The notes: generated from the sequence alone by a model not told the origin. Shown: positions 3,932-54,146, numbered from the stretch's first letter. The stretch: 64,000 bases of DNA from the human T2T-CHM13v2.0 reference genome, Homo sapiens (GCF_009914755.1 NC_060938.1), one strand, 5' to 3'. Program-made: numbers and translations.

Positions 3932-6322
3932 CGATATGGCTTGGCTGTGTCCTCACCCAAATCTCATCTTGAATTGTAGTTGCCATAACCCCCACATGTC
4001 ATGGGAGGGACCCAGAGGGAGACAATTGAATCATGGGTGTGGTTACCTCCATGCTGTTCTTGTGATAGTGAGTGAGTTCTCATGAGATCTGATGGTTTTA
4101 TAAAGGGCTTTTCCCCTTTTACTCATTCTTCTTCTCCCTTCTGCCAGGTGAAGAAAGGTGTGTTTGCTTCCCCTTCTGCCATGATTTATTGTAAGTTTCC
4201 TGAGGCCACAACAGCCATGCTGAACTGTGAGTCAATTAAACCTCTTTCCTTTACAAATTACCCAGTTTCAGGTATGTCCTTATAGTAGCATGAGAATGGA
4301 CTAATATAGCAAATTGTTGTGATAGAGTGGAGTACTGCTATTAAGATACCCAAAAATGTGGAAACAACTTTGGAACTGGGTAACAGGCAGAGATTGGAAC
4401 AGTTTGGAGGGTTCAGAAGAAGATAGGAAAATGTGGGAAAGTTTGGAACTTCTTAGAGACTTGTTGCATGGCTTTCACCAAAATGCTGATAGTGATTTGG
4501 GCAATAAAGTCCAGGCTGAGGTAGTCTCAGATGGAGATGAGGAACTCGTTGGGAACTGGAGTAAAGGTCACTCTTGCTATGCAAAGAGACTGGAAGCATT
4601 TTGCCCCTGCCCTAGAGATCTGTGGAACTTTGAACTTGAGAGAGATTATTTAGGGTATCTGGAGGAGGAATTTCTAAGTGACAAAGCATTCAAGAGGAAG
4701 CACACATAAAAATTTGGAAAATTTGCAGCCTGACGATGTCATAGAAAAGAAAAACCCATTTTCTGGGGAAAAATTCAAGTCTGCTCAGAAATTTGCATAA
4801 GTAAAAAGGAGCTGAATGTTAGTCATCAAGACAATGGGGAAAATGTCTCCAGGGCATGTTGCAGACCTTCACAGCAGCCACTGTCATCACAGGCCTGGAG
4901 GCCTAGGAGGAAAAACTGGTTTCTTGGACTAGGCCCAGGACCCCTCCACTGTGTGCAGCCTAGGAACATGGTGCCCTGCATCACAGCCATCCCAGCCATG
5001 GCTAAAAGGGGCCAAGGTACTGCATGGGCCATGGCTTCAGAGGGCGCAAGCCCCAGGCCTTGGCAGCTGCCACGTGGTGTTGAGCTTGTGGGTGCACAGA
5101 AGTCAAGAACTGAGGTTTGGAAACCTCTGCCTAGATATCAGACAATGTACGGAAACACCTCAATGTCCTGGCAGGGGTGTGCTTCAGGGGCAGAGCCCTC
5201 ATGGAGAACCTCTGCTAGGACAGTATGAAAGGGAAATGTGGGTCAGAGCCCCAACACAGAGTCCCCACTGAGGCACTGCTATTGGAGCTGTGAGAAGACG
5301 GCCACAGTCCTCCAAACTCCAGAATGGGAGATTCACCTACAGCTTGCACCATACAACTGGCAAAGCCACAGGCACTCAACACCAGCTCATGAAAGCAGCT
5401 GGGAGTGGGGCTGTACCAGGCAAAGCCACAGGGACAGAGCTTCCCAAGGCCACAGTAGCTCACCTCTTGCATCAGCGTGATACAAGTTCACTCTCAAGTT
5501 CAAAGTTCCACAGATCTCTAGGGCAGAGGCAAAATGCTTCCAGTCTCTTTGCATAGCAAGAATGACCTTTACTCCAGTTCCCAACAAGTTCCTCAGCTCC
5601 ATCTGAGGCTACCTCAGCTTGGATGTGAGACATGGAGTCAAAGGAGATCATTTTGGAACTTTAAGGTTTAATGACCATTCTATTGGATTTCCAACTTGCA
5701 TGGGAGCTGTAGCTCCTTTGTTTTTGCCAATTTCTCCAATTTGGAAAGGATGTATTTACCCAATGCCTATACCCCCATTGTATCTAAGGATTTTACAGGC
5801 TGATAGGTGGAAGAGACTTGCCTTGTCTCAGATGAGTCTTTGGACTTGGACTTTTGGGTTAATGCTGGAATGAGCTAAAACCTTGTGAGACTGTTGGAAT
5901 GGCATGACTGTGTTATGAAATGTGAGGACATGAGATCTGGGAGCAGCCAGGGGCAGAACAATATGGTTTGACTGTGTCCCCACACAAATCTCATTTTGAA
6001 TTGTAGTTGCCATAATCCCAACATGTGAGAGGAACCAGGTAGGAGGTAATTGAATCATGGGGGCGGTTACCTCCATGCTATTCTTGTGATAGTGAGTGAG
6101 TTCTCATGAGCTCTGATAGTTTTATAAGGAGCTTTTCCCTTTTATTCATTCTTCTCCCTGCCACCATGTGAAGAAGGACATGTTTTCTTCTTCTTCTGCC
6201 ATGACTAAGTTTCCTGAGGCCTCCCCAGCCATGCCAAACTGTGAGTCAATTAAATTTTTTTCCTTTACAAATTACCCAGTCTTGGGTATGTCCTTATAGC
6301 AGCATGAGAACAGACTAATGCA
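3932..6322 (+). mobile_element. Inner THE1C element nested in the outer internal region: 5' LTR 3932-4308, 3' LTR 5959-6322
   Basis: 5-bp TSD CAGGC at 3927-3931 and 6323-6327, after which the outer internal sequence resumes. Both LTRs share GTTGCCATA, TTACCTCCATGC and GGTATGTCCTTATAG. Confidence 0.92.
5491..5623 (-). repeat. Inverted copy of 4510-4642
   Basis: The reverse complement aligns to 4510-4642 with about 6 mismatches in 133 bp. Confidence 0.92.
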
Positions 6323-6862
6323 CAGGCTAATAGGCAGAATGGACTTGCCTTGTCTAAGATGAGACTTTGGACTTGGACATTTGGGTTAATGCTGAAATGA
6401 GTTAACACTTTGGGGGACTGTTGGGAAGGCATGATTGTGTTTTGAAAGGAGAGGACATGAGATTTGGGAGGGCCAGGGGTATAGTGATATGGTTTGGCTG
6501 TGTCTCCACCTAAATATCATCTTTAATTATAGTTTCCATAATCCCCACGTGTCATGGGAGGGACCAGGTGGGAGGTAATTGAATCATGAGGCAGTTACCC
6601 CCATGCTGCTGTTCTCATGATAGTGAGTGAGGCCTCATGAGATCTGATGGTTTTACAAGGGGCTTTTCCCTTTTTGCTTGGTACTTCTTCCTGCCATCAT
6701 GTGAAGAAGGATATGTTTGCTTCCCCTTCTGCCATGATTGTAAGTTTTCTAAGTCCTCCCCAGCCATGCGGAACTGTAAGTCAATTAAACCTCTTTCCTT
6801 TATAAATTACCCAGTCTCAACCAGCTTTTTATCGCAGCATGAGAATGGACTAATAAAGGCCC

Positions 6863-7140
6863 CATAATGGCAGGGAAGTCACCAGGAAATCACAAGACAA
6901 AAATATACAGGGAAGCCAAGAATAGAGTTTTTTCAAATAAGAAGGAGTGAGTAGTGAATGTATGGAAATTTCATAAAAAGTCAAGTTAGATAAGAATTAT
7001 CCATTAGACTTAGAAACAAGACAACTTTGTAAGAGCAGTTTCAATGAAGTGGTGGGCCCAATTGAATCAGGAAGTGAAGACAGTACATATCAACAAATCT
7101 GAAAATCTGGTTATGATAGGAAGACGAGAGTCTGGGAAGT
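6863..7140 (-). mobile_element. L2 continuation
   Basis: AAGTCAAGTTAGATAAG...TCCATTAGACTTAG...AGAGCAGTTTCAATGAAGTGGTGGG are typical antisense L2 blocks. Confidence 0.7.
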
Positions 7141-7699
7141 AACCTCATCACCATTCTCCATTTTCCATTATCCTGCTTCCATCTGTCAATGTCTGACTCA
7201 ATATAAAATCAGCACTGACACATGCATAGTTACAGCTACACATAAGAAGTCTGTCTGTAGCTAAAGCCAAGCAAACATAATACCCACAGCAGGGATGGAA
7301 ACTAAATATCATGAGGTGATTGTCATCAAAAGATGACTCCTTTTTGAGGAAATCCCAAGTGAAAAAAGAATTGGCACTGGGGTCAGGAGATTTTCCTAAA
7401 ACATCCTCCTGTTGCTAAGGAACTTGAAGTCTACACAACTGTACACACATAAGTCTACTCCTGGCCTGTGGCGATCCTTATTATTCCCTATTTTCCTACA
7501 TTCAGAACCACTGAGGAGAAAAATATCCATGGGCAGGCCAGCGAGTTACAAATAATGGAGAAATAGACATGGAATAAAATTGAATCATCGAGTTTGTGAA
7601 CCAAAGGCCAACCTGCCAACTCATTTCTAAGGTTTGTAGCAGGTTGTCTGTGGTCAGAAACTATATAGATAGTTTTTACGCATTTCAAAACCTCAAAAG

Positions 7700-7928
7700 A
7701 CAGCGTGGCAGAGAAAAGAAGCTGGATCTCAGACCTGTCTGGATTTAAATCCTGGTATCCTTACCTACTGCAGATTGTCCTGGGCAAGTCACTTCCACAG
7801 GCTGAGCCTCAGTTTCTTCATCCAATAAAAGAGGTCTAAAAATATCTCCCTTATGGTTTAGTGGAGGAAATTAAATGAGATAATGTATAGAGTGCTCAAT
7901 GGGCTGTCTGGCATGCAATAAATATTCA
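7700..7928 (+). mobile_element. MIR SINE
   Basis: MIR core GGGCAAGTCACTT...CTGAGCCTCAGTTTCTTCATC...ATTAAATGAGATAATGTA. Confidence 0.85.
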
Positions 7929-8884
7929 TTTCTTCTGACTGGTCAAAATGCGCTTTGAATGTGCATTTAGTAGCATGAATAGGAGGTGTGTGCTAGTACT
8001 TAATACATCAGCAAAAAGAATCTAGGTGGAAATTAGAAGAAATGCAGTAAACAAACAATTTAATGTGTCAACATATTCTGAAGGAGTTAGAGAAATCCTG
8101 AAATTACACCAATGGTTATTATCTGATGGATGGGTAAATAAAACAGACAGTCCATGACACTATCCTTTCAGTCTTTTTAGAAGAGAATGAGGTATGGTAT
8201 CCTCTAAGGTAGTATCCTTCCCACACAAGGACATTTTGTCATTAATATCATTTTTAACACAAGAAGAACCAATGAGACTTTTTTACTTCTGCATGCCCAA
8301 TTTCAGAACCACAGTTAAACAATTGTTTTTTAAAAGAGATTTAACATTATAGGAAATATTTTTCAAAATTTTATTTTATTCAATTATTTAGAGACTAATA
8401 GGCTTGCGTTCTGCTTCCTTATTCATTATCCTAGATTTTGAGCTACAGATCATTGCTCTAAATCTCACGATCAGCTGGACCACTCTGAAATAGAGCTCTT
8501 AGATATTTAAAGGAGGCATTTCCTAAGGCAATGCTCATCTCATCACATGTCTCCCCCAGCATACAAGATCAGTGATAGTCACTGGACTTATACAAGATTT
8601 TGAAATGCTTCCACATAGCCCTTCAGAAAGTATGTAAAATGCTATGAATAAGACATTGTCTCTGGGTTAAACGTTTAATCAAACCTAATGTACTTTTTAA
8701 GAGCAAATCAGTGATCACTTCAATATTCTTTACACATGACTTTTGAGTCCCCTTACAACTAAGTCAGCCTCAGTACCAAGAGTAGATAGAGATTTGATTT
8801 TCAAAGGGCCATTTTTGTCATAATCCATACCACTTAGAAACCTGAACGACAACACTCAAGAGCAAATTCTTACACACTGAAGTC

Positions 8885-9109
8885 AAACTTTCCCATAGTC
8901 TGACCCATCTCATCTTCTACATCTCCCTTCCATAAACACTAAACCCTAATTGACTTTATCTACTAGCCATTTCCCAAACACAGTGCTCATTCTTTCTCAT
9001 CTTGCACTTTCCTGATAATGCCGTTGCCTTTGTCTAGACTGATTTCCTTCCATCTCCATCTATTTAGAGCTACATGCCCTTTCAAGGCCTGGTTCAAATG
9101 CCCCTTTCT
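8885..9109 (+). mobile_element. L2 fragment interrupted by L1; resumes about 10635-10862
   Basis: CCCTTTCAAGGCCTGGTTCAAATGCCCC motif. The distal half ends GTGCTCAATAAAT. Confidence 0.65.
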
Positions 9110-10634
<1,525 letters not shown>

Positions 10635-13378
10635 TTATGAAATTTCCATCATCAACCCAGCTAGAAATTAATTCTCTCTCCCCAGAACAGCCATAACACT
10701 CAGACTATACTCATCTGCTACTGCTTTGTACCTCCTGAGTTTAACTACACTTGTATGGAGGTATAATCCATCTGTCTTACTGGTCTTTAAGTTTCTTGAT
10801 GAAAGAGATGATGCTTAAATATTATAATAATTCTTTATAAATAATAAGTGCTCAATAAATAATAATCCTTGTTTTACAAAATCTTAGCAAGTGCTTCACA
10901 TCACTAATCACATATGTAAAATCTCCACTTCTCATTTGCATAACACTCAAGGGTTGTGTGAAAGGATGGGCAAAGCGAAGCTTCTTTTAATCCGTTTCTA
11001 AGCTTCTTTGCACCACTTGCCACATTCTAGTTTTCCTTCTAGTCATCCTAATGTATTCATTATGGCATTCATTCTAAACCCACATGAGACCCTCAAATAA
11101 GTCAATCCTCCTTTGAAACTACACTTTATAATTAGGATTCATGATTGGAATGAACATTTGTATTTCAGCCTATAGGCTGGCCCCTTAAGTTTTGAAATTC
11201 TTATTATGACTATATAGTAAACATTTTCATCATGTGAGAAAACATCCTTTCTCCTACATAGCAGATATAGAAGTCACAGAGCACATTGCCTGACACCTAC
11301 CATCTCATCAGAAAGACACAGTTCACTATTCAGATAGTGAGTGCTTTCTGTGACCCTAGCTAATGCGGAGCTCCTGAAAAGCCACCCACTAAGGATGGCA
11401 GGATTGTACTAGCTGGAAGACTGATATGGTTTATGATCATTCCTCAGTTTGAGCCTGTGTCACACTCCCACTGTACAAGATTTTTCTTCCTATCTGGGAC
11501 ATACATTCCTCCATTACTTTTGAAGTTTTCTAAAGAAAAACACTCTCCTCCTGCCTCTCTTTTTTTGGGGGTTGGGAGGGAGTTGATGCTTTTAAGAGAG
11601 GAGGGGACTCTGTACCCCTCCATGGAAGAATTAAAGCCCATCATATCTTTTTCTGGGATTTTTCTGACAGTTTACCCTTTGTCATATCAGAGACAGAGCC
11701 TAAGCTTCCTTGTGCAAAGGCAAAAGATATGCAGAGAGAGAGAGCCTGGGCCTCTACTAAGGAGCTTTTCTAAAAAAAAAACAACAACAACAAAAAAAAT
11801 AGCTACTGCTATTGAACAGATTCTAGGGAAAGGTGGCCAACCCTGGAGAGTCAAAGTTCAGGAACAGCTGGTTGATTTTCAATTAAATTCCATGATTTAT
11901 GAAATCTGTGTTTCCAATTTGAACAAAAATAAATGACAGATTAAAAAGAGTAGGTCCTTAAAAGGACATAAAATATTGACAGTATAAATAGCTGTCAGGT
12001 TCAAAATTTAATCATGAATTGAATCCAAGATGATTGTGTTTACACCAAAACAGTGTCCACATGGACATATTAGTAGCAGTCCTACTTGACGATTCCAAAG
12101 CAGTAAAGCCACATTGGGTGGAAGATGGACCTCTGCAGAGAAGGTAAATTGCACAGAGATGATCGTGTCCCTTCTTCCCTGTCATTCTTCCCGAAGAGAA
12201 CCTCAAAGCAGTTCAATTTAAAATGTTGCAAAGCACCACTACCTCCTTTCAACTTTTAGCTGTTCTGTTATTCTTCACTGAATTGAAAAAGGGCAGAGTT
12301 GGGACAGGCTTTTATGCCCCACACCTCCAGAAGAATTCACAGAGCTTGACCAGAAAGCAGTGTTGCTGTCTAAATGATAAAGGGATAATTCTAATTTAAT
12401 TTAAAAGGGTAAGCCGTTAGGGAACTGAACACCTCAGGACTTATCCGTAAGAGCTAAGGCCTTTTATTACTAGATTCATATATCCCCATACCACCCAGAT
12501 CAAAAGTAAGTAAAAGTCATTTCCACATAATAACTCTCTGGTAGCCTATGGATAATGAGTTTGTTATCTCCAGCCATCTCTCATTAGGAAGGGATTGGCC
12601 CCTTTACAAACACAGTACAGAGTGGCTAACTCTATATAAAGCTTTTATGAAGAAAGAGCTAGATACAATTTCCCAGTGCATCAAGGAAAGCAGATTCTAA
12701 CCTCATCTGCGCTGACTGGGTTTGACAAATTTAACCTTGACACACTTCCATTTGTAAAGATGTAAAACAGAAATACCCTCAATAACAACTCATCTTCCAC
12801 AGAGTCTTTGTCAGGATTAATGACTTTGGTGTGTATCGTAAGAAAAATATTCAAATAGAATCCACAGCTGTATTTTTCTGCTGTTCCAACTATAGCCATG
12901 GTAAAGCCTGGTAAAGACAATGATTCAGTAAGAAAAAGAAGGCAGAAGTTTGTTACCAGGGGTTGGCAATAATATTCTTATATGGTAGATGAGCTTTTAG
13001 TGTTGAGGTACCTGCTTATCTATCCTCATGGTACCAACAGCTCTGAGCTTTTCTAATCAGGAGAATCTCCCAATCCAGCAGTGCCACATGGACCATGTCA
13101 AGATGCCTCCCAAGAGGAGCATGTGAGGAGTCGGTGTTCTATGTCCACTTACCTGTGTCCTGTCCTAGAGTGTAGCTTTTAACTGCTTGTTTGTCAGTTT
13201 GGTAGTAAACAACACCAAAAGTAACAACAAACTTTAACATAGTCCAAGTTGTCATTCTCACCAATCTTCAAACCCAAACCAAACTTTGTCATAAGCCCTA
13301 GCTTGCTAAGTCAGGACAACTTGTACCACGTCACAGCCATGAGAACAACTTTGTCCTACACTGAGCACTGCCTAACAT

Positions 13379-13543
13379 CAATGGTTCCCAACCCTGGCTA
13401 CACATTAGAATCACCTGGGGAGCTCTTAAAATCCAGTTGCCTAGGCAGCATCCTGACTAAGTCAGATTTTCTGGGGTGTGTCACTGGTTTTCAGGTCTCG
13501 CTGGGTGATTCCAAGGTATATGCAAGGCTGAGAACCACAACTG
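13379..13543. mobile_element. MER5A-like hAT-Charlie MITE
   Basis: CAATGGTTCCCAACCCTGGCTACACATTAGAATCACCTGGGGAGC...GGCTGAGAACCAC. Confidence 0.85.
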
Positions 13544-13580
13544 TAGAGTATCTTTCCTTTCTACTATATGAGTTCAATAC

Positions 13581-13693
13581 TAGGATGACCAGCTCATCCT
13601 TGTTTGTCTAGGACTGTCTCGGTTTCACCACTGAAAGACCCACATCCCAGGAACCTCTTCAGTCCAAGCAAACCAGGGCAGTTTGTTAGCCTA
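13581..13693. mobile_element. MER81 hAT-Blackjack MITE
   Basis: 113 bp, TAGGATGACC...GTTAGCCTA, with degenerate TIRs and a CACTGAAAG centre. Confidence 0.8.
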
Positions 13694-13919
13694 GTGCCGA
13701 ACTGTTTTTTCAATAACTAGCTTTCAATCCTATTGTTGTTGTTCTTACACTTTCCATTAACAAACCATCACACACCAAAATCTGCTGTTTCTCACTTGTG
13801 CCATAAATGTTCTTTATTCTGCATCTCATTCCCTATCCAAAAGATTTGGGGATAAAATGTCTAAAATCCAAGAGATATTGACTCACGAGCAGATGAATTA
13901 CCTGAAGAAGTTAAAAATG

Positions 13920-14030
13920 GATTTCAATAAACATTTATTAAAAGCCACTATGTGCCAAGCAGTTTCCAATGCTGTGTGTCAAAGATGAATAAAAAGACAA
14001 GCTTACATTCAGAATGTTCACAATCTGCTA
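13920..14030 (-). mobile_element. L2 3' end fragment
   Basis: TTCAATAAACATTTATT...ACTATGTGCCAAGCA. Confidence 0.6.
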
Positions 14031-16848: not shown

Positions 16849-16883
16849 ATTTTTGTCCATGCTTTGTAAGCATGGACAAAAAT
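16849..16883. repeat. Perfect inverted repeat, 16-bp arms, 3-nt loop
   Basis: ATTTTTGTCCATGCTT-TGT-AAGCATGGACAAAAAT. Confidence 0.97.
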
Positions 16884-17380: not shown

Positions 17381-17488
17381 AACGTTGTGTGTTCATGAGT
17401 TCACTTAAACTCTTCATATCTGAAATAGTTTATCTCATTCTCTTTTTTCCTATATAGAATGTTCTGTAAATGTTCCTATGTTCCATAG

Positions 17489-17873
<385 letters not shown>

Positions 17874-43383: not shown

Positions 43384-43786
43384 CCTAACTCTGAGGAAAT
43401 CTCAACTCTTTCATTCAATTGGCTGCTGAACACTATTGTGTGTCAGTTACATTCTAGAAATACAAAGAAGATGATAAGGAAGACAGTAAAACTGGAGCCC
43501 TGTCCCAGTACCACATGCAAAGCCTGACGTGGACTCTAAGACCCATTACCTAAATGCAAAAGTCAAAGCTGCAAAGCTAGTAGAAGAAACTGTAGAATGT
43601 CTATGTGACCTAAGGATGAGAAATACTTCTTAAACAAAATACAAAAGCGCAAACCAAAAGGCAAAACATTGACTAATGAGGTTTCATCAAAGCTAAGCTT
43701 TTCAGTTCCACAAACGATATTACGGACAAAATTAACAGAGCACTGACAGAGTAGGAGAAGATATTTATAATGCTTTACCCATTTTA

Positions 43787-44460
43787 TTTTTTTTTTAAGT
43801 GAAAGCAAGTTTATTAAGAAAGTGAAGGAATAAAAGAATGGCTACTCCATAGGCTGCTGGTTGCCCATTTTTATGGTTATTTCTTGATTAGATGCCAAAT
43901 AAGGGGTAGATTATTCATAAGTTTTCCAGGAAAGGGGTGGGCAATTCCCAGAGCTAAGGATTTCTCCCCCTTTTTAGACCATATAGGGTAACTTCCTGAT
44001 GTTACCATGGCATTTGTAAACTGTCATGGCGCTGGTGGGAGTGTAGCAGTCAGGACCACCAAAGGTCACTCTCATTGTCGTCTTGGTTTTGGAGGGTTTT
44101 AGCCCGGTTATTTGCTGCAAACTGTTTTATCAGCAAGGTCTTCATGACCTGTATCTCGTGCTGACCGCCTATCTCATCCTGTGACTTAGAACGTCCAGCC
44201 TCCTGGTAATGCAGCCCAGTAGGTCTCAGCCTTATTTTACCCAGCCCCTATTTAAGATGGAGGCACTCTGGTTCAAATGCCTTCGACATTTCTCCCCTCC
44301 CTTTTATAAGAGAACCCTTAATCCTAAGTGTTGTAGGAAGATGAAGATCCATCTTCCGTAACTTCTTCAGGCTGAATAGGGGCGATGATATTCCTGCCTC
44401 AGTATGAGGGTTTCTTGTATTCGGGGCAGAGAGGGCTTAGTTATACAGCATCAGTATGCA
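43787..44460 (-). mobile_element. Processed MER41 (ERV1) transcript: internal 3' end, PPT, LTR U3-R (44288-43797), poly-A
   Basis: Minus strand: PPT AAAAGGGAGGGGAGAAA, then TGTCGAAGGCATTTGAACCAGAG (MER41 start), ending AATAAACTTGCTTTCACTT-(A)10. 14-bp TSD CTTTACCCATTTTA at 43773-43786 and 44461-44474. Confidence 0.88.
43924..43932. promoter_or_regulatory. GAS (STAT) motif TTCCAGGAA in the MER41 LTR
   Basis: Matches TTCNNNGAA. The neighbouring site at 43945-43953 (TTCCCAGAG) is broken. Binding not shown. Confidence 0.5.
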
Positions 44461-44831
44461 CTTTACCCATTTTAGAGTAATATCTACAATGTCTAAGAAA
44501 TTCCTAAATCCAAAATAAAAAGACAGCAATCTCAAAGGAAAAATAGGTAAAGGATGACAAAATGCAATTTACAGTGAAGGAAACCCCAGAGGACTAACAT
44601 GCTTATGAACAGACACTCAGATCCACAGTTATCAGTGAAATGAAAATTGAAACAACAATGAAATGTAACTTTACAATTAGACTGCCAAAATTTAGAAATC
44701 CGGAAAATGCTAAGGGTTGGCTGCAGTATGGGACTATAAAACCCAAAGGATAAAAAAGATAAATAAGACCATTACCGCAATAATGACTAATAATACCACA
44801 GAAATTAGAAGCATCTTTAAAAAAAAATTAC

Positions 44832-45060
44832 AGTTTTGAGCACCTAGTCTGAGCCAGTCCCTGTCCTAATAGTCACCTGAACATGCATTATCTTCTTTAT
44901 TCATGATAGTGACAGTTATTACGGTCCCCATTGTATAACCAGTATAAGAAAACTAAAGCATATAACAATTAAGGGCTCAATCACACAGCTACAAACCACT
45001 GGATGAACATTTAAACCAATGTCTTCTGACTTAGAGACCAAGGTTCTTTCAATACCACAG
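44832..45060 (-). mobile_element. MIR
   Basis: TTGAGCACCTA...CCCCATTGTA...GAAAACTAAAGC...TCACACAGCTA...TCTGACTTAGAG. Confidence 0.7.
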
Positions 45061-46009
45061 AGTCCTCTTGAGTTTTTCCCTACACCCAGCTGCCACCCCT
45101 AGAAACACTCTAGTAGGCCAAGGAAACAGAATTTGCTTTTAAAATTAAGTTAGTACAATTGTTTCTGAAGTACCTGCATAAGTTAACAGTAAAATCAACT
45201 CTTTTGTGTGAAAAAAAATTAATAATCTTTTCTGATTATGCAAAAATAGGACTCTACTCTGGGATACAGATTAAGGAATTTTGTGCTTTTCACTGGCAAC
45301 CTCAAAAGAATGAGAGGGTGTGAAGTGCCCAGAATTTAAAGACAGCAGGAGAGGAAATTGGCATGGGGAAGAGAAGGGGTCCAGGACGATGGCAGAGTCC
45401 AAGCAAGGATTTGCAACAAAGAGTGGCTGTAGTGGGGAGTGATAGTGACATATTTACAAAGGAATATTGGAAACCAATATGAGGTGGTTTCCCATTCTAT
45501 TCTGAGCTTGCCCTCCAGGATCCCCCAGTCTGTCATACATCACAGCCAGCCTCAGTAACCTTGCTCACCCTCTACACTCTCCCTCCAGATTTCCCACAAG
45601 GCCACAGTAGCATCAGGCAGGGCATGTGAGGCAATGGGGACACACATGTATTCAGTTGATTGTCTACACTGACCACAGCTGAGCCTGGAAGGATTGTTTT
45701 ACCCTTTTTATACACAAAATCAATATTCTTTCCCTCATGATTGCATTTGTGTTGTGTGCTGCTCAAACCTCTCTGAAATTCTTTCCCTGACAGTACCTAT
45801 GGATGGAGCTAGCTAAACTGTGGGATGCTGCTCCTCTAATTACTATTTCCTTTACTTACTTGGGGCTTTTCTTATAATGATTTCATTACCATAGAGGAAA
45901 GAGGAAGACCACGCAGCCAAGCCAACCCAAAGAAATGAGTGCTTCATTCAGTCTCACTAGATGCCCTGGTCCATTTGGTCCATTTGGCCCATTTGGCCTG
46001 GAGTAAGGG

Positions 46010-46330
46010 GAAAATCAGGGAAGCCCTCCTGGAGGAGGTGATGCCTAAACCCAATCTTGAAGGTTAACTAGTACTCAGCAGACGAAGAAAGGGGAGCAGA
46101 ACATCCAGACAGAGGAAAGGAACAGAGGTACAGAAGGAGGAATGACAAGTGCATGTGTGAGGTAAAGGGAGTGTGGAGGGACTGAGCATGAAGAACAAGG
46201 CAGGGTTTGGTGGAATAAAGGACTGAAGAGAGCACTGAGCAGTGTGCACTATATTCTTAGATTGACGGGATGCAACTGAGGGGTGTCAAACTAAAGAATG
46301 GCAGGATCCGATTTGTGCTTTACCTAGCCT
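46010..46330 (-). mobile_element. L2 fragment
   Basis: ATCAGGGAAGCCCTCCTGGAGGAGGTGATGCCTAAAC...TCTTGAAGG. Confidence 0.75.
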
Positions 46331-47051
46331 GACAAAATGATCACCTATTGAAAAGCCTAACAAAGAATTTCTCCTAATTTTTTAATCAATTGACACAAAA
46401 TATTTATAAAGGTTTTTTAAAATAGATCATACTTAATCATTCCTTTCTCAAGTTATTAAGGATATCCCAGAAAAACTATGATGCAGACATCATATTAATT
46501 TCTGGAATATGACAACAGAAAGATAATTCTTATTCCAAAAGGCATAAATCTAATTTTTAAAGGACATGGGAGTAAAATTTCACATCAAGAAGATAAGGTC
46601 ATGTGCAGAAACCCAGGAAGCCAGCACATGATATTGAAGATAGGTTACCAGGTTGCAGAAGGAAGTCCAGCTAGGCAGGCTAAGGAATGGCACCCAGGAG
46701 ACCCAATGAGGAGTGGCAGGTCTCCAGAGGGTGTGGCTTCCACTGCCATGGAAACAACATAATGAATGAGCAGAGACATTAGCATCTCAAAAGGCTCTTT
46801 TTCCCTATAGTCTACATTTATAGGGATAAATATAAGGTCAAGGAACCCAGCTGCACAAACTATATCCTACACCTTACCTACACCTAAAAGAATCCCCTCA
46901 AAGTGGTTTTTATCCATGTTCCTCACATGGCATTACCAACCTTTTCTTCCTATCCTCCCATAAATCCTGGTATATAACCTTCTCTCAGTTGCATATGCTC
47001 AGTTGGGTATGTGGCTATTTCCACGGACATGCATGTGTGCACACAGGCATG

Positions 47052-47056
47052 CACAC

Positions 47057-47103
<47 letters not shown>

Positions 47104-47114
47104 CTCTCTCTCTC
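47052..47114. repeat. Compound (AC)18(TC)7 microsatellite with imperfect CA lead-in
   Basis: Pure AC at 47065-47100 and TC at 47101-47114. Confidence 0.95.
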
Positions 47115-47622
47115 CAGCAACAATGTACCTGTCAAGCATGTTGCCATCACTTCCAAGTTTCCAAGTTCCTGTCGTACACTTGGCTCCCAACCCCGGTTAT
47201 CATCAGAATCAATCAGGAGCCTCATGCTGGTCAATTTTTTAATGGTTAACCAACATGCAACCTTTCAGTAACATCAACTCAAACACAAGCTCGAATGGTG
47301 AAACTCTCCAGTGATATTTTCCTCTCTTATCCTGATGCATCCAACATTTCTGTCATGAAAATGAATGCTTCCTCATTCTCTTTATCATATCTTAACATCA
47401 CGAAGACAAGCAGGTGACATCTAGCTATAGTAAATATATAAAGTAAGGATATAGGGAGAGTAAATCAAGTGGGCAGTCCAGCCTTGGGGTGATCTGACAG
47501 CAGATATCCAGGCTCCTACACCACTGGAGTTGAGTTTGAGAAGCAGAGCTCCAACACTTGGAGAAAATTACAAAAAGAAAATAGAGCCCAAATAATTTAT
47601 CGGTAAAAGTGCTAGACCAGTT

Positions 47623-48003
47623 TTTTGTTTGCTTGTTTTTTTGTTTTGTTTTGTTTCTTGAGACGGAGTTTTGCTCTTGTCCCCCAGGCTGGAGTGCAAT
47701 GGCACAATTTCGACTCACTGCAACCTCCGCCTCCTGGATTCAAGCAATTCTCCTGCCTCACCTCCTGAGTAGCTGGGATTAACCTGTCTTCAATATCATG
47801 TTCTAGCCTTCTGGGTTTCTGCAGATGATGTTATCTTCTTGATGTGAACCGCCACCACACCCAGCTAAGTTTTCTGTATTTTTAATAGAGACAGGGTTTC
47901 ACCATGATGGCCAACCTGCTCTCGAACTCCTGACCTCAGGTGATCCACTCGCCTTGGCCTCCCAAAGTGCTAGGATTACAGGCATGAGCCACCGCACCTG
48001 GCC
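47623..48003 (-). mobile_element. AluS (Sq/Sp-like) carrying a non-Alu insert
   Basis: TSD TAGACCAGTT at 47613 and 48004. The Alu is interrupted at 47780-47848. Confidence 0.95.
47780..47848 (-). repeat. Inverted copy of 46579-46647
   Basis: Ungapped reverse-complement alignment, 8 mismatches in 69 bp. Confidence 0.92.
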
Positions 48004-48740
48004 TAGACCAGTTACTAAAGCAGGAAATCAAGTGCAAGGAAATGAGACTGGAGACAGGAAATGAGACCCTCAGGTACCCAGTCAGAGCAAGTCTATCATC
48101 AAATCTGACTTCATGTTGCATCTCCGAATCTCCTTAAATGCCGCAGGACATGGTGCTAGAGTCAGCATAATATTACCTTCCCTGTAAGGAAAAGTCAGGT
48201 GGGCCTGCTGTGAGGATCAGAGACTTCAGAAGCAAAGAGGCAAACAAGAACCCACAATGAGAAAGAAGCTGATTAAACCAAAATAACTCGAAGTTCAAGT
48301 TCAGACAAATTAGGTCCCAGGCTACTGAACACATTTTCAGTTATGATCACAAACCACCATCAGAAATCTTGGAAGGTTCACAGTAAAGGCTTCAAGGAAC
48401 AGAAGAGGTGGGCGAACATTGTTGCAAATTTTTGGACCATGAACACCAGTCCCTGGCAAAATTATAAAACACATTAAATAAACAGCTCATTATAAAAAAG
48501 AAAAGACACTGTGCTTAGGAACCTGCCTGAGTTCACTGAGAATAAGTCATGTAAAACTCATCTTTCTCTATTTTCAATGGCTACTAAATTGATGGTGCAG
48601 CAGAGATTATCAGCTGTTGTTCTGATTTCCACAATGAACTTGTCAAAATCTTTTATAAAATCCTCATAGAAAAGATGGAGAAATACACACCAATTAAATT
48701 TTTAACTATTGGACGAACGTCTACCTAGATAAAGGACTTT

Positions 48741-49241
48741 TGTAGTGCACCACAATAGTAGCATCCTTCACCCCACCTCTGATCTTGGCCACAGCTATGG
48801 GAGATATTCTGGGCGAGCTCATTTTTGCTGTGACAGCATCATACCCCAAGCTGGGGGTGTATATTGCGTCCTTCATTCTCTTTCTCAGGGACTTCTCTGA
48901 AGAAGAGAGAGCCCACTGGCCCTATTCACAAGCACACCCTGAAAGGGCAGAGATGTCAATGCCCCCAGGGAAAACACATAACAAACTAGAGATGGATACC
49001 AGTGGATATATGCAACACACATCCATCCTTCTGAACAACTCTGGGAGACCTTCAGTGTACCTCTCAGGAGGTCTCTCTAGAATTGAGCCCCAATGCCTAT
49101 AAGAGTCTCAAATGGCTTTTTCTCCTTCCCTGCCTCTCTCTCCCCACCTCCGCACTCCTGCTTTCTGGGATCATCTTCCAGAAAAACATCTACACACAAA
49201 TCCTTGAGTTGGCTACGTTTGTGGAGAACTACAGTAAGATA
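48741..49241 (+). mobile_element. LTR16-like ERVL solo LTR
   Basis: TGTAGTG...TCAATGCCCCCAGGG...CTCCTGCTTTCTGGGATCATCTTCC...AAATCCTTG...TAAGATA. Confidence 0.7.
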
Positions 49242-49534
49242 GTCACTAAGTTCTTGCCATTGTCCTAGAGACACTTCTAAAGATAGAAAGGGCATGCATG
49301 GTAAATTTGTGCATGACCAAAAATAGGATGAAATACCTGAGAATAATACCAAAAAATCATTCAGAAAGACATGGATAGGCTGGAAAGACAAGCTAAAACA
49401 AAAAGCATGCAATATTATATAAATAAATTGATCATTCTAGACCCAAGTGTAAAACATCAAGTACACAATTGCAGATGGAAGAGGCCTGGCTTAAAAGCTG
49501 TTTGTGTTTAAAAGGCTCTTGATACAGATGATCT

Positions 49535-50048
49535 CATGTGCTGTTAGAGGAAGTGTAAATTAGTCAACACTTTCTGGAGCTGCACATATTCTGATTTATC
49601 CAATCTGGAGCTGTGCATATTCTGACATAAGTTCCTGCCAGGAATTTGTTAAATAAGTATGCAAATGTGTATATACAAGCATATTCATCACAGCATTTAT
49701 TATAGAAAAAGGAATGTTTAACAATTTAAATAACCATCAATAGAGAAATAGTTAAATAAACTATGGTACATCCACTCAATGGAATACTATAGATTAAGTA
49801 TAATAAAGTTGTTTCATAACTGCTGGCATGGAAAAATATTTTATGATATAAAAATGTTGAAAAATCGGATTGCAAAGTAGTATGTCTGATATTATTCACT
49901 TTCATAAAACATACAAACAAATATATGTATATATAGGTATATACATTTTTAAAGTAGGAAGGATTTACCTAAGTGATTTTTTCTATTTTTTATCTATTTT
50001 TATAGAGTTTCTACAATAACAATATTCTATTTCTGTTATGAGAAACAG
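49535..50048 (+). mobile_element. L1ME 3' fragment
   Basis: CCATCAATAGAGAAATAGTTAAATAAACTATGGTACATCCACTCAATGGAATACTAT. Includes a 31-bp-period duplication at 49573-49625. Confidence 0.75.
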
Positions 50049-50175
50049 GTTCTTTTTTAAAGAAGAAGTCCCCTGGATTTTATTTGCCATCACAATATGA
50101 ATCAATATGATACAAGTGATGCAAATGTAAATTTGGTAGAAGTAAAGTGTTTAATTCTATTAAGAGTTAATAGAC

Positions 50176-50460
50176 AACCGGGAGCAATGGCTCATGCCTG
50201 TAATCGCAGCACTTTGGGAGGCTGTGGCGGGTGGATCCCTAGGTCAGGAGATCAAGACCATCCTGGCTAACACGGTGAAACCCCGTCTCTACTAAAAATA
50301 CAAAAATTAGCCGGGCGTGGTGGCGGGCACCTGTAGTCCCAGCTACTCAGGAGGCTGAGGCAGGAGAATGATGAGGCAGAGCTTGCAGTGAGCCGCGATC
50401 ACACCACTGCACTCCAGCCTGGGCGACAGAGCAAGACTCCATCTCAAAAAAAAAAAAAAA
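50176..50460 (+). mobile_element. AluY-like with a small right-arm deletion
   Basis: Diagnostic ACCATCCTGGCTAACACGG and GAGCTTGCAG. TSD AAGAGTTAATAGAC at 50162 and 50461. Confidence 0.93.
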
Positions 50461-52111
50461 AAGAGTTAATAGACGTATAGTGTTCAGGAGGACTTGGAAG
50501 GCACAGGTCATTGTCCAGACCACTGGTCCGACCACATCCAGACCCTTCTTTCCAGGCTGCATTCCAAGTATTGAGAGTAACATTGATAAACTAAAGCTCA
50601 TCAGAGAAGTGTTCTCAGGAGCGTGAAGGGCCAAGAAACCTGTTGCTGACGAATGGGTGATGGGATGTTTATCCCTAACATCAGACATGCTGAAGTTAGT
50701 ATGAGAGTTAGCATCAATAACAAAAAGAGCTAATGTGTAGAAGAAAGATCTGGATCATTCTGAACAGTGTTGGAGGACCAGTGGGTGAAAGTATAAATAA
50801 ATCAGATTTTTCACTTACAACAAAGGAGAAAGAAAACGAGAAAAGGGGATAGAAAGAAAAGAAGTAAAAGAACCTTCTAACAATTCAAACTGTTTGAAAA
50901 CTGAATAGGCCAAAGTGATGAGTTAGTTCATCACTGAATATGTGCAAAATGCATATTCAGGTCCATCTTTCAGGAATAGTATTGTGGGGTCTTATACTGG
51001 GGATGGTCCCTAATGTTCCTTCCAATTCTAGGGTGTTATAAAAATTCACTCACCCCCTTATATCCTCCAATATGCAGTCTGCAAAACAGACGACAGGAAA
51101 TAAATCAAATGCTTGGGTTCAATAGCGCATAGAACTAAGGATAACGTAATTCCCTTGAGTACAGCATGACTCATTCAGAGCATTCACATTTCTGTAGAAT
51201 TTGGAGAAATTGTTATGAAAATGTTAAGTGTATAAGAGGTGAATGTCACTTAAAGTTAGAATTGTTTCTTGTTTCCATACTGCAGTAGTAACAGCTTCTT
51301 GTCTATGTTCCAGGCCTAGTTTATCAAAATGAAAGTTGGCTTGGGGATTTGTGTAACTGTACAGTCCTTCAACTGAGAAGACTCACAGTGGTAATCCTTT
51401 CATAAGAAGTTTTTCTCACACAAAAAGTTACCTCACTACAATAAATCTGTTTCATCTTTTCAAAATGAGTGGAACACTTACCTATGTCACACAAATATAA
51501 GGATGAACAATAATTTTAAAATTATATTACTTACCTAAATTATATATAAACTGTAATAAAGTGCATTTACTTAGCATAACACATACCATTACAAAATAGG
51601 AAATAACATAAAAAATAAGACATATTTGCCCATATGAATCACACTTCAGACCTTACGGTTGCTTCTTGTGAAAGTGTAACAGTGCCTCTTGAAAGTGAAC
51701 ACCATCTGCGTGGTGCAGCACCCCCTAGAGAAGTATGGTGTGGTCCTTTGTCAAGAAGAGCTCCCTGTGTTCCCTAAGTTCTTCTGAGCAGGGTTGGGAG
51801 GACAAGCATGGTGGAGAGGCTCAAGGTCAGAGTCCCATTTTCTCATCGCACAAAGGTCCCAGGCTAGAGAGGTAGCATGCTTGTTGAAGAAGACCACGGT
51901 CATTTCTTAGGGTGCTGATCCTCAAGAAGGGATGAAAGGTAATGTCAAAGTGAAGAGCAGAGCTGGTCATCAGATTGACAGCAATCTGAGGCAAAGTAAA
52001 AGTAGCCCACAAAGCTCTAGTTTCATCCAGGAAGCTCCTAGTCAAAGCTCAGACTCTCATGTGGAGGCCCCAGAGACAGGTCAGACTGAACTATTATTCC
52101 AAGTTTTGACT

Positions 52112-52295
52112 AATTAGCACTTACTGAGAGTTTAACACGGCAGCTACCCTGAATGTTCTTATGTATTCATTGAGTCCCCACAACTCTCCATTAGGCAGAA
52201 ACTACTATCTTCCCATTTTGCACATTAGATGACTGAGATTTCAGTAACTTTCACAAGGCTAGGAGGTTAACTCAGGTCTTTCTGACACCACACTC
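52112..52295 (-). mobile_element. MIR
   Basis: CACTTACTGAG...CACAACTCTC...CCCATTTTGCA...ACTGAGA. Confidence 0.7.
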
Positions 52296-52311
52296 TATAT
52301 AAAATATCTCA

Positions 52312-52620
<309 letters not shown>

Positions 52621-53067
52621 AAATCTCATGCAAAAGGTGAATTGGTCCATGATGAAACAATCTCACTATTTCTGAGCTGGTTGTAGTTCAGGATTTGGAT
52701 ATTGTGAGTATATGAATTTGTACTATTGTTTCCAGTCAGGTTCCTCAGGCTCAGCCAGCTCCCTGAATGCTTCTTCCACATAACATAATTCTAAATGTTT
52801 AAAAGCTTAATCTATTTACAAACATCAATTGAGAACCTACTAGTACCGGATGCTATGCTGGATTCTGGGATACATAGGTAAGAACCAGACATGCACCCTG
52901 CCCTGAAGAGTCTCAGAACAGTCTAGCAGAGATAAGGTATATGCCAAGAATGAAATAAAAGTTTAAAAGGCACTGACAGAAAAAGAAAAGCTGGAAAAAG
53001 TAAGACTGTCTCCAAATCCAGGAATAAGGAAAAGGAGAGGAGAGAAGAGGACAAAAAAGGATAGGTT

Positions 53068-53375
53068 TGGGTACAAAGTTTCAGTTAGACAAAAGAAATA
53101 AGTTCTGCAGATCTACTGTACAGCATGGTGACCATAGTTAATAACAATGTACTGTGTACTTGAAAATTTCTGAGAGTAGATCTTAAAATGTTCTCACCAC
53201 AAAGAAAGATAAGTATGTGAGGTAAGAGATGATTAATATGTTAATTTCTTAATTTAATTATTTCACAGTATATACAGATATCTAAACATCACGTTGTATA
53301 CCATAAATATATACAATTTTTGTCAATCTTACCATAATAAAACTAGAGAAAGATAAATAAATAAAATAAAATAAA
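53068..53375 (+). mobile_element. L1MA (about MA8-MA9) 3' UTR end
   Basis: GGGTACAAAGTTTCAGTTAGAC...TGTTCTCACCAC...AATAAA and an A-rich tail. Confidence 0.85.
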
Positions 53376-53613
53376 AGCAATGGGCCCAATGCAAAGTAAT
53401 AAATTGTAATCAAGTTTACTTGAGAGACATGCTGTTTACCCCGTGAGATCCTGAGAGGATATTTTGTCCAGACTACTCTTTGTTTCGTATTTTTTTACTT
53501 CTAGAAAACACTGTTTTTAGGTAAATAAATATGTAAATATTACTGTATATAAAAAGGCTTTAATGACTGAAGAAAATTGATTATAAAAAGCCTCTCAGAA
53601 CTCAGACGAACTA

Positions 53614-54146
53614 GGCCACGTGCAGTGGTTCACATCTGTAATCCCAGCACTTTGGGAGGCCAAGGCAGGAGGATCACTTGAGCCCAGGAGTTCAAAGCCA
53701 GCCTGAGCAACACAGGAAGACCCCATTACTACAAAATAAATAAATAAATAAAACTTTTTGGAAATCTTTACTTTTCAAAATCTGGGCTGTTTAAGATCTG
53801 GCCCAAAGAAATCCTTGGAAATTTATTTCTCATGACTCTTACATACTTTGCATTTCAGCCAAAGCCCTTATTTTCTCTAAGTATGCCTCAGATCATTCTA
53901 TTTCCCCTGCCTGTTTTCATCCTTCTTTGTCTCTTCTCTTCTTCCCTTCTCCTTATTCCTGGATTTGGAGATAGTCTTACCTTTTTCAGCTTCTCTTTTT
54001 CTGTCAGTGCCTTTTAAACCTTTATTCCATTCTTTGTATATACCTTATCCCTACTAGACTTGCTAACTTTTTAATTAGTCAAGCATAGTGGCTGTGATCA
54101 CACCACTGCATTCCAGCCTGAGCAACAGACCTCAAAAAAAAAAAAA
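53614..54146 (+). mobile_element. AluJ split in its linker by a 305-bp insert (53760-54064); right arm internally deleted
   Basis: Left arm 53614-53750. Right arm AATTAGTCAAGCATAGTGGC...CCAGCCTGAGCAACAGA-poly-A from 54073. Degenerate TSD AACTCAGACGAACTA / AACTTCTGATAAACTA. Confidence 0.8.
53919..54060 (-). repeat. Inverted copy of 52920-53062
   Basis: Reverse-complement alignment with about 15 substitutions and 1 gap in 143 bp. Confidence 0.92.

What the first reader, a model, noticed from the sequence alone, without database searches (positions are those of the whole stretch)
4510..54064. Three locally templated inverted insertions with the same geometry in one window
Seen: three short segments have an inverted copy to their right. 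The pairs are 4510-4642 / 5491-5623 (gap about 850 bp), 46579-46647 / 47780-47848 (gap about 1130 bp) and 52920-53062 / 53919-54060 (gap about 860 bp). Each copy interrupts a transposon whose consensus fixes which side is the insertion, and the donor is on the left each time. Known: replication template switching (FoSTeS/MMBIR) and polymerase theta end joining make locally templated inverted insertions. Inference: the shared polarity and roughly 1-kb reach may record a consistent fork direction or repair scale at this locus. Caveats: n=3, so shared polarity has a 1-in-4 chance, and insertions into known repeats are the easiest to spot.
Basis: partly seen in the sequence, partly recalled or inferred. 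Interest (0 to 1): 0.8.

Follow-up and report, generated by a model that had tools for sequence, protein, structure and literature searches.

The report
Three old inverted local copy-paste insertions
Three stretches of 70 to 140 bases were each copied backwards, long ago, from about 1 kb to their left into a resident repeat; this is a known kind of DNA repair or replication scar, and three in one 64-kb window is somewhat unusual.

Summary
All three inverted pairs are real: 4510-4645/5488-5623 (136 nt, 95%), 46579-46647/47780-47848 (69 nt, 88%) and 52920-53062/53919-54060 (143 nt, 89%).

- **Which side is the insertion.** In each pair the right copy sits inside a repeat whose other copies lack it. 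The hosts are a MaLR-type LTR element and two Alus with target-site duplications.
- **Donors.** For pairs 2 and 3 the local donor is the only other match in the whole genome. For pair 1 it is the best match, but only by one mismatch (95% against 94%).
- **Not inversions.** The sequence between the arms is not inverted in any pair.
- **Most likely origin.** They look like three separate template-switch scars from break repair or stalled replication. Arm divergences of 5%, 12% and 11% suggest ages of tens of millions of years.
- **Pair 3 is more complex than reported.** The insert is 327 nt. Of these, 173 nt have no source anywhere in the genome.
- **Clustering.** The same scan of 160 kb of control sequence (80 kb of immediate flanks, 80 kb from two random blocks) found none. 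The window is therefore locally enriched, but it was picked after the fact.
- **Polarity.** Three of three donors on the left has p = 0.25. A strand-composition proxy suggests steady leftward forks here, which is compatible with the fork idea but proves nothing.

This is a known mechanism at an unusual length and reach. Interest is modest.

The parts
3933..6319 (+). Host of insertion 1. A complete MaLR-type LTR element 'B' (the names THE1/MST are recalled; no repeat library was available). It has LTRs at 3933-4309 and about 5958-6319 with an internal region between. It is nested, with a 5-bp duplication CAGGC, inside an older MaLR 'A' (2138-3898 plus 6322-6854).
   Evidence: Direct-repeat map. 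Junction print and LTR comparison. 28 genomic family copies align collinearly.
4510..4645 (+). Donor 1, in the internal region of element B.
   Evidence: It is the best genome-wide match to the insert, 95% against 94% for the next copy. It shares 2 non-majority bases with the insert.
5481..5623 (-). Insertion 1. A 7-9 nt filler contains an 8-nt repeat of the start of the copied tract. It is followed by a 136-nt inverted copy of donor 1 (5488-5623). The right junction lies in a 5-6 nt microhomology (C)CTGGA.
   Evidence: The insert is absent from 21 of 21 informative family copies and from copy A. In a junction query only the window itself spanned the junction, 1 of 40 scored out of 164 candidates.
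46579..46647 (+). Donor 2, unique sequence.
   Evidence: The genome-wide search gives only the insert itself and this donor.
47623..48002 (-). Host Alu of insertion 2. It is flanked by a perfect 11-nt target-site duplication, CTAGACCAGTT, at 47612-47622 and 48003-48013.
   Evidence: Alignment to two other Alus. Flank print. Sub-threshold Metazoa_SRP match at 47886-48002 on the minus strand.
47780..47848 (-). Insertion 2. A 69-nt inverted copy of donor 2 replaces 7 nt of the Alu. There is 2 nt of microhomology (TA) at the left junction and none at the right.
52920..53062 (+). Donor 3, unique sequence. Its right end lies 3-6 nt from the 5' end of an older L1 3' fragment (53066-53375).
   Evidence: only two copies in the genome. 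The best genome hits to the L1 fragment are 80-81% identical.
53614..54146 (+). Host Alu of insertion 3. The left arm is 53614-53745. The right arm resumes at about 54073 and has a separate internal deletion of about 90 nt. The A tail ends at 54146. Candidate target-site duplications are at 53599-53613 and 54145-54160 (12 of 16 matches).
   Evidence: Sub-threshold Metazoa_SRP match at 53615-53726 on the plus strand.
53746..53918 (.). Orphan segment of 173 nt inside insertion 3, with no other copy in the genome.
   Evidence: Whole-genome search finds only itself at E up to 10. Nothing in the 224-kb local sample. It is not an inverted copy of 53063-53640 (score 23 against shuffles of 20.9 +/- 2.8).
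53919..54072 (-). Insertion 3, templated part. A 142-nt inverted copy of donor 3 (53919-54060) is followed by a 12-nt filler. The whole 327-nt insert is flanked by an 8-nt direct repeat, AACTTTTT.

Best explanation
These are three separate, ancient, DNA-level template-switch insertions. In each case a 3' DNA end was left by a double-strand break, or a nascent strand stalled, inside a resident repeat (one MaLR internal region, two Alus).

That end paired with single-stranded DNA of the same chromosome region 0.85-1.1 kb to its left. It copied 69-143 nt in the opposite direction. It was then rejoined to the original site, with little or no microhomology, small fillers and small deletions.

Two known processes fit this anatomy. 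One is snap-back, synthesis-dependent end joining after kilobase-scale resection. The other is a replicative switch of the FoSTeS/MMBIR type.

**Shown:** the insertions, their local donors, the junction anatomy, and their age relative to the host elements. **Inferred:** the enzymology, and whether the trigger was a break or a stalled fork.

I read the shared left-hand polarity and the roughly 1-kb reach as mainly small-number coincidence. Two filters probably add to it. Closer inverted repeats are unstable and get lost. Arms shorter than about 35 nt were not detectable.
For: **Right copies are insertions.**
- Pair 1: 21 of 21 informative family copies (28 examined) and copy A lack the insert. 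The junction is unique in the genome among 40 scored of 164 candidates.
- Pair 2: two Alus in the window run through the site, with 7 nt replaced. The host Alu has a perfect 11-nt target-site duplication.
- Pair 3: the copy lies between two parts of one Alu.

**Donors are local.** For pairs 2 and 3 the genome holds only the insert and the local donor. For pair 1 the local donor is the top hit.

**No inversion of the intervening DNA.** Element B aligns collinearly with its family from 4300 to 5480. Both parts of each Alu keep one orientation.

**Junction signatures.**
- Pair 1: (C)CTGGA microhomology and an 8-nt stutter repeat.
- Pair 2: TA microhomology and a 7-nt deletion.
- Pair 3: 12-nt filler.

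**Event 1 post-dates its host.** The arms are 5.1% diverged and B's two LTRs 13.9% (Fisher p = 0.007; non-CpG 4.4% against 10.3%, p = 0.048).

**Different ages.** JC distances are 0.053, 0.126 and 0.114.

**No link to host orientation.** The hosts lie in +, - and + orientation.

**Literature.**
- Inverted templated insertions with nearby templates occur as human germline variants: 103 and 99 events of at least 25 bp in two people, with the template within 100 bp by the tool's definition (PMC8421209, passages).
- Snap-back synthesis in end joining: PMC2943611 and PMC5728401 (search listing and start of abstract only).
- Depletion of closely spaced inverted Alu pairs: PMC3215922 (search listing and start of abstract only).
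Against: - **Length and reach.** The copied tracts (69-143 nt) and template distances (843-1133 nt) exceed those in the papers I read. These were templates within 100 bp (PMC8421209) and an expected copied length of about 10 nt for short-range switches in apes (PMC7954356).
- **Weak microhomology.** It is weak or absent at 4 of the 6 outer junctions.
- **Orphan segment.** Pair 3 carries 173 nt with no donor anywhere. A simple one-switch model does not explain this.
- **Unexplained details of pair 3.** The donor ends at the edge of an older L1 fragment, and the insert is flanked by an 8-nt direct repeat.
- **Pair 1 donor.** It is only one mismatch better than distant family copies (7 against 8 mismatches). 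Only 40 of 2263 candidates were scored.
- **Clustering.** 0 comparable pairs in 160 kb of controls against 3 in 64 kb argues against pure coincidence.
- **Shared age of events 2 and 3.** They are 6 kb apart and have indistinguishable divergence.
Confidence: 0.72

Rival explanations
1. The locus has a real, direction-linked propensity. Forks cross this gene-poor region in one direction. Stalled leading strands switch onto exposed lagging-strand template roughly a kilobase ahead. Donors therefore always lie on the same side at a similar distance.
For: - 3 of 3 donors lie on the left, with spacers of 843, 1133 and 857 nt.
- Controls hold 0 such pairs in 160 kb, including 40 kb on each side of the window.
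- Total skew S is negative in all nine 16-kb bins over 144 kb. The mean is -0.085 on low-copy sequence.
- By the skew/fork-direction correspondence in PMC4729899 (passages) this suggests steady leftward forks. Left-hand donors would then lie ahead of the stalled end.
Against: - n = 3, and the polarity p is 0.25.
- The window was chosen because it had three events.
- The immediate 40-kb flanks share the same skew yet hold no event.
- Event ages differ about twofold.
- My repeat mask was crude. It used copy depth in a 224-kb sample and masked only 28% of the sequence.
- An annotated minus-strand lncRNA covers the window up to 24261 and could add transcription skew.
- Either fork direction can be fitted by some switch model.
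Confidence: 0.15
2. Insertions 2 and 3, which are 6 kb apart, were made in one multi-switch replicative repair episode (MMBIR-like). Only insertion 1 is a separate, later event.
For: - The arm divergences are indistinguishable: 8 of 69 and 15 of 142 mismatches, JC 0.126 and 0.114.
- Polarity is the same in both.
- Insertion 3 is itself multi-part: orphan 173 nt, copied 142 nt, 12-nt filler and a nearby Alu deletion of about 90 nt. This is typical of serial switching.
- Germline events copying from up to five templates are reported in PMC8421209 (passages).
Against: - The counts are small, so equal divergence is weak evidence.
- No further short inverted patches lie between or around the two insertions. 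The exact inverted 14-mer scan gave only the known pairs plus 2 others in the window, about the chance expectation.
- No outgroup was available.
Confidence: 0.12
3. Retroelement machinery made some of them. Insertion 1 would come from a reverse-transcriptase strand switch when element B was copied. Insertion 3 would arise at a break nicked by the L1 endonuclease in the Alu's A-rich linker.
For: - Pair 1's donor and insert lie in the same element.
- The pair 3 insert is flanked by an 8-nt direct repeat. The right-hand repeat sits on TTTTT/AA, a sequence of the type cut by the L1 endonuclease (motif recalled; sequence).
- L1 ORF2p breaks yield local inversions and templated insertions in cell models (PMC11702581, passages).
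Against: - Arms of pair 1 are much less diverged than B's LTRs (5.1% against 13.9%, p = 0.007). The event is therefore later than integration, unless gene conversion homogenised the arms.
- No poly-A tract lies at either end of insertion 3.
- Insertion 2 has a 7-nt deletion, no duplication and no A tract.
- No source exists for the orphan 173 nt, as would be needed for a spliced or chimeric RNA.
Confidence: 0.07
4. They are not insertions at all. They could be terminal inverted repeats of a mobile element, inversions with duplicated breakpoints, two copies of a rare repeat, or chance.
For: The arm-spacer-arm geometry is similar in the three cases.
Against: - The arms of pairs 2 and 3 occur exactly twice in 3.1 Gb.
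- The spacers consist of unrelated material: MaLR internal sequence, a microsatellite plus half an Alu, and an L1 fragment plus half an Alu.
- The intervening DNA is not inverted.
- E-values run from 1e-16 to 1e-53.
Confidence: 0.01

Closest known systems
MMBIR-type templated insertions (MMB-TI; PMC8421209, passages read)
   Same: The insertion is an inverted copy of a nearby template. Junctions have little microhomology, the insertion can replace a few bases, and some events use several templates. Such events are present as germline variants in normal people.
   Different: That work defines templates within 100 bp and inserts up to read length. Here the templates are 843-1133 nt away and the tracts are 69-143 nt. 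These events are fixed and tens of millions of years old rather than polymorphic.
Snap-back synthesis in synthesis-dependent microhomology-mediated / polymerase-theta end joining (PMC2943611 and PMC5728401: search listing and start of abstract only; details recalled)
   Same: A resected 3' end folds back on its own strand, primes and copies. This gives an inverted templated insert on the same side as the donor. Stutter repeats and small deletions, as seen at junctions 1 and 2, also fit.
   Different: As I recall, typical inserts are a few to a few tens of nucleotides, templated within tens of bp of the break. Kilobase reach and tracts over 100 nt would need long resection and a more processive polymerase.
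Short-range template switches in great-ape evolution (PMC7954356, passages read)
   Same: These are evolutionary, fixed events in which replication briefly copies the opposite strand nearby and returns. They create inverted repeats.
   Different: The expected copied length there is about 10 nt, within a small flanking region (4017 significant events across the apes). The events here are about ten times longer and reach about 1 kb.
Inversions flanked by inverted duplications, and L1 twin-priming inversions (10.1101/2021.12.20.472354: search listing and start of abstract only)
   Same: Both produce small inverted segments near retroelements.
   Different: Here nothing between the arms is inverted, and the copied DNA is not L1 sequence.

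Membership tests
Locally templated inverted insertion (MMBIR-type / MMB-TI signature) | The inserted sequence is the reverse complement of a template on the same chromosome nearby. | tested here: met
   The genome-wide best or only donor is the local one.
Locally templated inverted insertion (MMBIR-type / MMB-TI signature) | The insertion is absent from the pre-event (empty) site. | tested here: met
   Tested with paralogues, not orthologues. 21 of 21 informative MaLR copies and copy A lack it. Two Alus in the window lack it. The Alus' target-site duplications bracket the inserts. Orthologous empty sites were not available.
Locally templated inverted insertion (MMBIR-type / MMB-TI signature) | The template lies within 100 bp of the insertion (operational definition in PMC8421209). 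| tested here: not met
   Spacers are 843, 1133 and 857 nt.
Locally templated inverted insertion (MMBIR-type / MMB-TI signature) | Microhomology at the switch junctions. | tested here: inconclusive
   Pair 1 right junction has 5-6 nt. Pair 2 left junction has 2 nt. The other junctions have 0-1 nt or fillers.
Polymerase-theta / SD-MMEJ snap-back insertion | A short insert templated within tens of bp of the break, with small deletions and stutter (features recalled). | tested here: not met
   A stutter repeat (pair 1) and a 7-nt deletion (pair 2) are present. The length (69-143 nt) and distance (about 1 kb) are out of range.
Polymerase-theta / SD-MMEJ snap-back insertion | Dependence on POLQ. 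| not testable with these tools
   This needs genetics in cells.
Inversion with duplicated breakpoints (staggered-break model) | The segment between the inverted copies is inverted relative to the ancestral order. | tested here: not met
   Element B is collinear with its family across 4300-5480. Both halves of each Alu keep one orientation.
DNA transposon or foldback element with terminal inverted repeats | The arm-spacer-arm unit is repeated in the genome and bounded by target-site duplications. | tested here: not met
   The arms of pairs 2 and 3 occur only twice in the genome. The spacers are mosaics of unrelated repeats.
L1-mediated (TPRT) insertion | A poly-A tail, a target-site duplication and an endonuclease-type target. 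| tested here: inconclusive
   Pair 3 has an 8-nt flanking direct repeat on TTTTT/AA but no A tract. Pairs 1 and 2 have none of the three features.

The most novel reading that the evidence does not exclude
This gene-poor stretch of chr14q21 may be a long-lived hotspot of a mesoscale template-switch process, with tracts of about 100 nt and a reach of about 1 kb. In it, stalled leading strands of persistently leftward forks copy the exposed lagging-strand template ahead of them. Donor side would then record germline fork direction. Insertions 2 and 3 may even come from one multi-switch episode. If general, such scars would be a fossil record of fork direction that can be read from sequence alone.
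Probability: 0.12. Interest if true: 0.6.

Novelty: new member of a known kind. Interest (0 to 1): 0.3.

Why it matters
Locally templated inverted insertions are an accepted signature of error-prone break repair and replication restart. They have been catalogued mainly at two scales. One is tiny (about 10 nt, or templates within 100 bp). The other is very large (kilobase to megabase rearrangements).

These three fixed events lie in between, and they can be polarised cleanly because each sits in a repeat with known empty-site paralogues. That suggests a practical genome-wide screen: look for non-family inserts in repeats that have an inverted source within a few kb. Such a screen could measure the rate, reach and strand bias of this process over evolutionary time.

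In themselves the three scars have no evident function. They lie in an intron of an uncharacterised lncRNA or in intergenic DNA.

Tried and rejected
- **Extending pair 3.** I tested whether the 173 nt to the left of the copy are an inverted copy of the DNA next to the donor, across or beyond the L1 fragment. They are not (score 23 against shuffles of 20.9 +/- 2.8). An apparent extension was an artefact of lenient gap penalties.
- **Source of the 173-nt orphan.** Nothing in the whole genome at E up to 10, and nothing in the 224-kb local sample with 7-nt words.
- **Donor 3 embedded in an ancient repeat.** I recalled a MIR-like element running across its left boundary. The genome search found only the two copies. 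The sensitive local search gave one weak hit (65% identity, E = 0.009). This is not established.
- **Propagated family variant for pair 1.** Rejected.
- **Background rate from 2 Mb of sequence.** This was not possible. The rate test is weak: 0 events in 160 kb puts the 95% upper limit near 1.2 events per 64 kb.
- **Search for shorter hidden events.** A scan for exact inverted 14-mers within 2 kb in low-copy sequence found the three pairs, a 16-bp hairpin and one 14-mer in the window. It found 2 hits in the 160 kb of controls, which is about the chance level.
- **Excess changes on the inserted copy of pair 1.** The inserted copy has 6 private differences and the donor 1. This hints at error-prone synthesis, but the exact two-sided p is 0.125.
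- **Transition excess in pair 3.** There are 14 transitions to 1 transversion. The donor looks purine-rich, though I did not measure this, so I draw nothing from the ratio.

Full report
**Observation**

The window is human T2T chr14:43462001-43526000 (hub note; one search confirms it as G000:C14). The three inverted pairs exist as described:

| Pair | Left copy | Right copy | Length | Identity | Spacer |
|---|---|---|---|---|---|
| 1 | 4510-4645 | 5488-5623 | 136 nt | 94.9% | 843 nt |
| 2 | 46579-46647 | 47780-47848 | 69 nt | 88.4% | 1133 nt |
| 3 | 52920-53062 | 53919-54060 | 142-143 nt | 89% | 857 nt |

A self-BLAST of the whole window on both strands found six inverted pairs within 3 kb. 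The other three are two Alu-Alu matches and an older MaLR copy matching insert 1 at 79%. Whole-genome E-values for the donor matches range from 2.8e-16 to 1.7e-53.

**Pair 1**

*Host.* The host is a complete LTR-internal-LTR element 'B' (3933-6319). I recognise it from memory as a MaLR of the THE1/MST type. No repeat library was available to name it.

B is nested, with a 5-bp duplication CAGGC, inside an older relative 'A' (2138-3898 and 6322-6854).

*The right copy is an insertion.*
- A runs straight through the site: 3732 to 3735, where B has 5480 to 5620.
- I fetched 28 further genomic copies. 21 cover both sides of the site, and all 21 have only -1 to 8 nt there. The other 7 are uninformative.
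- In a 76-nt junction query only the window itself spanned the junction, 1 of 40 scored out of 164 candidates.

*The donor.* It lies in the same element, 843 nt upstream. It is the best match in the genome, but narrowly: 95% against 94% for the next copy, with 40 of 2263 candidates scored. It shares two non-majority bases with the insert. The local origin therefore rests on proximity and on analogy with pairs 2 and 3, as much as on identity.

*Junctions.* The right junction lies in a 5-6 nt microhomology, (C)CTGGA. The left junction has a 7-9 nt filler holding an 8-nt repeat of the start of the copied tract.

*Timing.* B's two LTRs differ by 13.9% and the arms by 5.1% (Fisher p = 0.007; non-CpG 10.3% against 4.4%, p = 0.048). 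The event is therefore later than B's integration, barring gene conversion between the arms.

**Pair 2**

- The host is a minus-strand Alu (47623-48002) with a perfect 11-nt target-site duplication. It has a sub-threshold 7SL match.
- Against two other Alus in the window, 7 nt are replaced by the 69-nt inverted copy.
- There are 2 nt of microhomology on the left and none on the right.
- The genome holds only the insert and the local donor.

**Pair 3**

*Host.* The host is a plus-strand Alu.
- The left arm (53614-53745) has a sub-threshold 7SL match.
- The right arm resumes at about 54073. A 20-nt stretch there differs from the other Alus only by four transitions. The right arm also carries a separate internal deletion of about 90 nt.
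- A 12-of-16 candidate target-site duplication sits exactly at both Alu ends. As a free local alignment, 10.5% of shuffles reach its score.

*Insert.* Between the two Alu parts lie 327 nt:

| Part | Coordinates | Length |
|---|---|---|
| Orphan segment | 53746-53918 | 173 nt |
| Inverted copy of donor 3 | 53919-54060 | 142 nt |
| Filler | 54061-54072 | 12 nt |

- The orphan has no other match in the genome.
- It is not an inverted copy of the DNA beside the donor.
- The donor and the copy are the only two copies in the genome.

*Three details remain unexplained.*
- The orphan itself.
- The donor ends 3-6 nt from the 5' end of an L1 3' fragment. That fragment is older than the event: its best genome hits are 80-81% identical, against 89% for the arms.
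- An 8-nt direct repeat, AACTTTTT, flanks the whole insert.

**What they are not**

- They are not inversions with duplicated breakpoints. In all three the DNA between the arms keeps its ancestral orientation.
- They are not terminal repeats of a mobile element. The arms are unique pairs and the spacers are mosaics of unrelated repeats.

**Mechanism**

The anatomy fits a 3' end that leaves its site, copies single-stranded DNA of the same region in the reverse direction, and returns. The end could be the resected end of a break folding back on itself. It could also be a stalled nascent strand switching to the opposite template.

What the papers showed me:
- Inverted templated insertions with nearby templates occur as human germline variants. 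There were 103 and 99 events of at least 25 bp in two people.
- Short-range switches are common in ape evolution, with 4017 events and an expected copied length of about 10 nt (PMC7954356, passages).
- For snap-back end joining I saw only search listings and the start of abstracts (PMC2943611, PMC5728401).

The events here are longer and reach further than in those catalogues, so they sit between the short-range and the kilobase-to-megabase classes. Which polymerase acted, and whether the trigger was a break or a fork, is inference.

**Ages**

JC distances between the arms are 0.053, 0.126 and 0.114. At long-term primate rates as I recall them, about 1e-9 per site per year, these are tens of millions of years. 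Events 2 and 3 are roughly twice as old as event 1. Error-prone copying would inflate all three estimates.

**Clustering, polarity and reach**

- *Controls.* The same scan on 160 kb of control sequence found no low-copy inverted pair within 10 kb above 77% identity. The controls were 40 kb on each side of the window plus two random 40-kb blocks on chromosomes 7 and 12. Every pair within 3 kb there was Alu-Alu, with copy depth of 38 or more. An exact 14-mer scan gave the same picture.
- *Enrichment.* Given three events in 224 kb, all three falling in the window has probability 0.023. However, the window was selected for having them. The control sample only bounds the rate at roughly 1.2 or fewer per 64 kb.
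- *Rough scaling (my own inference).* I scaled from about 100 polymorphic events per person, using recalled values of about 4.5 million SNVs per person and about 5% lineage divergence. This gives well under 0.1 fixed events per 64 kb. A handful of windows with three or more events would then be expected genome-wide.
- *Polarity.* Three of three donors on the left has p = 0.25.
- *Fork-direction proxy.* I computed S = (T-A)/(T+A) + (G-C)/(G+C) over the contiguous 144 kb. It is negative in all nine 16-kb bins, with a mean of -0.085 on low-copy sequence. With the skew/fork-direction correspondence of PMC4729899 (passages), this suggests predominantly leftward germline forks. The left-hand donors would then lie ahead of a stalled end. 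That fits a switch onto uncoupled lagging-strand template, but other models fit the opposite direction equally well.
- *Caveats on the proxy.* My repeat mask was crude. An annotated minus-strand lncRNA covers the window up to 24261.
- *The 1-kb reach.* It may partly reflect survivorship. Closely spaced inverted Alu pairs are depleted in the genome (PMC3215922, start of abstract). Instability falls with distance and divergence (PMC10164571, start of abstract).

**Verdict**

The reading as locally templated inverted insertions is supported. The fork-direction inference remains open.

This is a known mutational process seen at an uncommon scale, in a window that is modestly enriched for it. I found no description of this ~1-kb-reach, ~100-nt class in my four repair and rearrangement searches. 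Those searches cover open-access full text only, and I opened no supplementary files.

Noticed in passing
window 16849-16883: A perfect 16-bp inverted repeat with a 3-nt loop in low-copy sequence. It is far beyond chance for 64 kb. It could be a short-range template-switch product or part of an unrecognised element.
   Followed up: partly
L042:849-6407 and L042:9429 to L043:4989 (chr14:43546849-43552407 / 43555429-43560989, right flank of the window): A 5.6-kb inverted pair at 86.5% identity with a 3-kb spacer and copy depth 4 in my sample. It is probably two full-length L1-type elements head to head, or an inverted duplication.
   Followed up: no
window 2138-6854: Nested LTR elements. A complete MaLR-type element (3933-6319) is inserted with a 5-bp duplication CAGGC into the internal region of an older relative. 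The older element's own LTRs are 2138-2510 and 6485-6853, 11.7% diverged.
   Followed up: yes
window 53746-53918: A 173-nt segment inside the split Alu with no other copy in the genome. Its source is unknown.
   Followed up: yes
window 53062-53069: The right end of donor 3 coincides within 3-6 nt with the 5' truncation point of an older L1 3' fragment at 53066-53375.
   Followed up: partly
window 54073-54100: The right arm of the host Alu of pair 3 has a separate internal deletion of about 90 nt between two similar short motifs, about 20 nt downstream of the insert.
   Followed up: partly
window -39999 to 104000 (L036-L043 plus the window): Strand-composition skew S is negative in all nine 16-kb bins over 144 kb, including the stretch with no annotated gene.
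   Followed up: partly
window 47030-47115: A (CA)n/(CT)n microsatellite lies between donor 2 and its copy. It gives a sub-threshold Rfam mir-297 match, which is a simple-repeat artefact.
   Followed up: no
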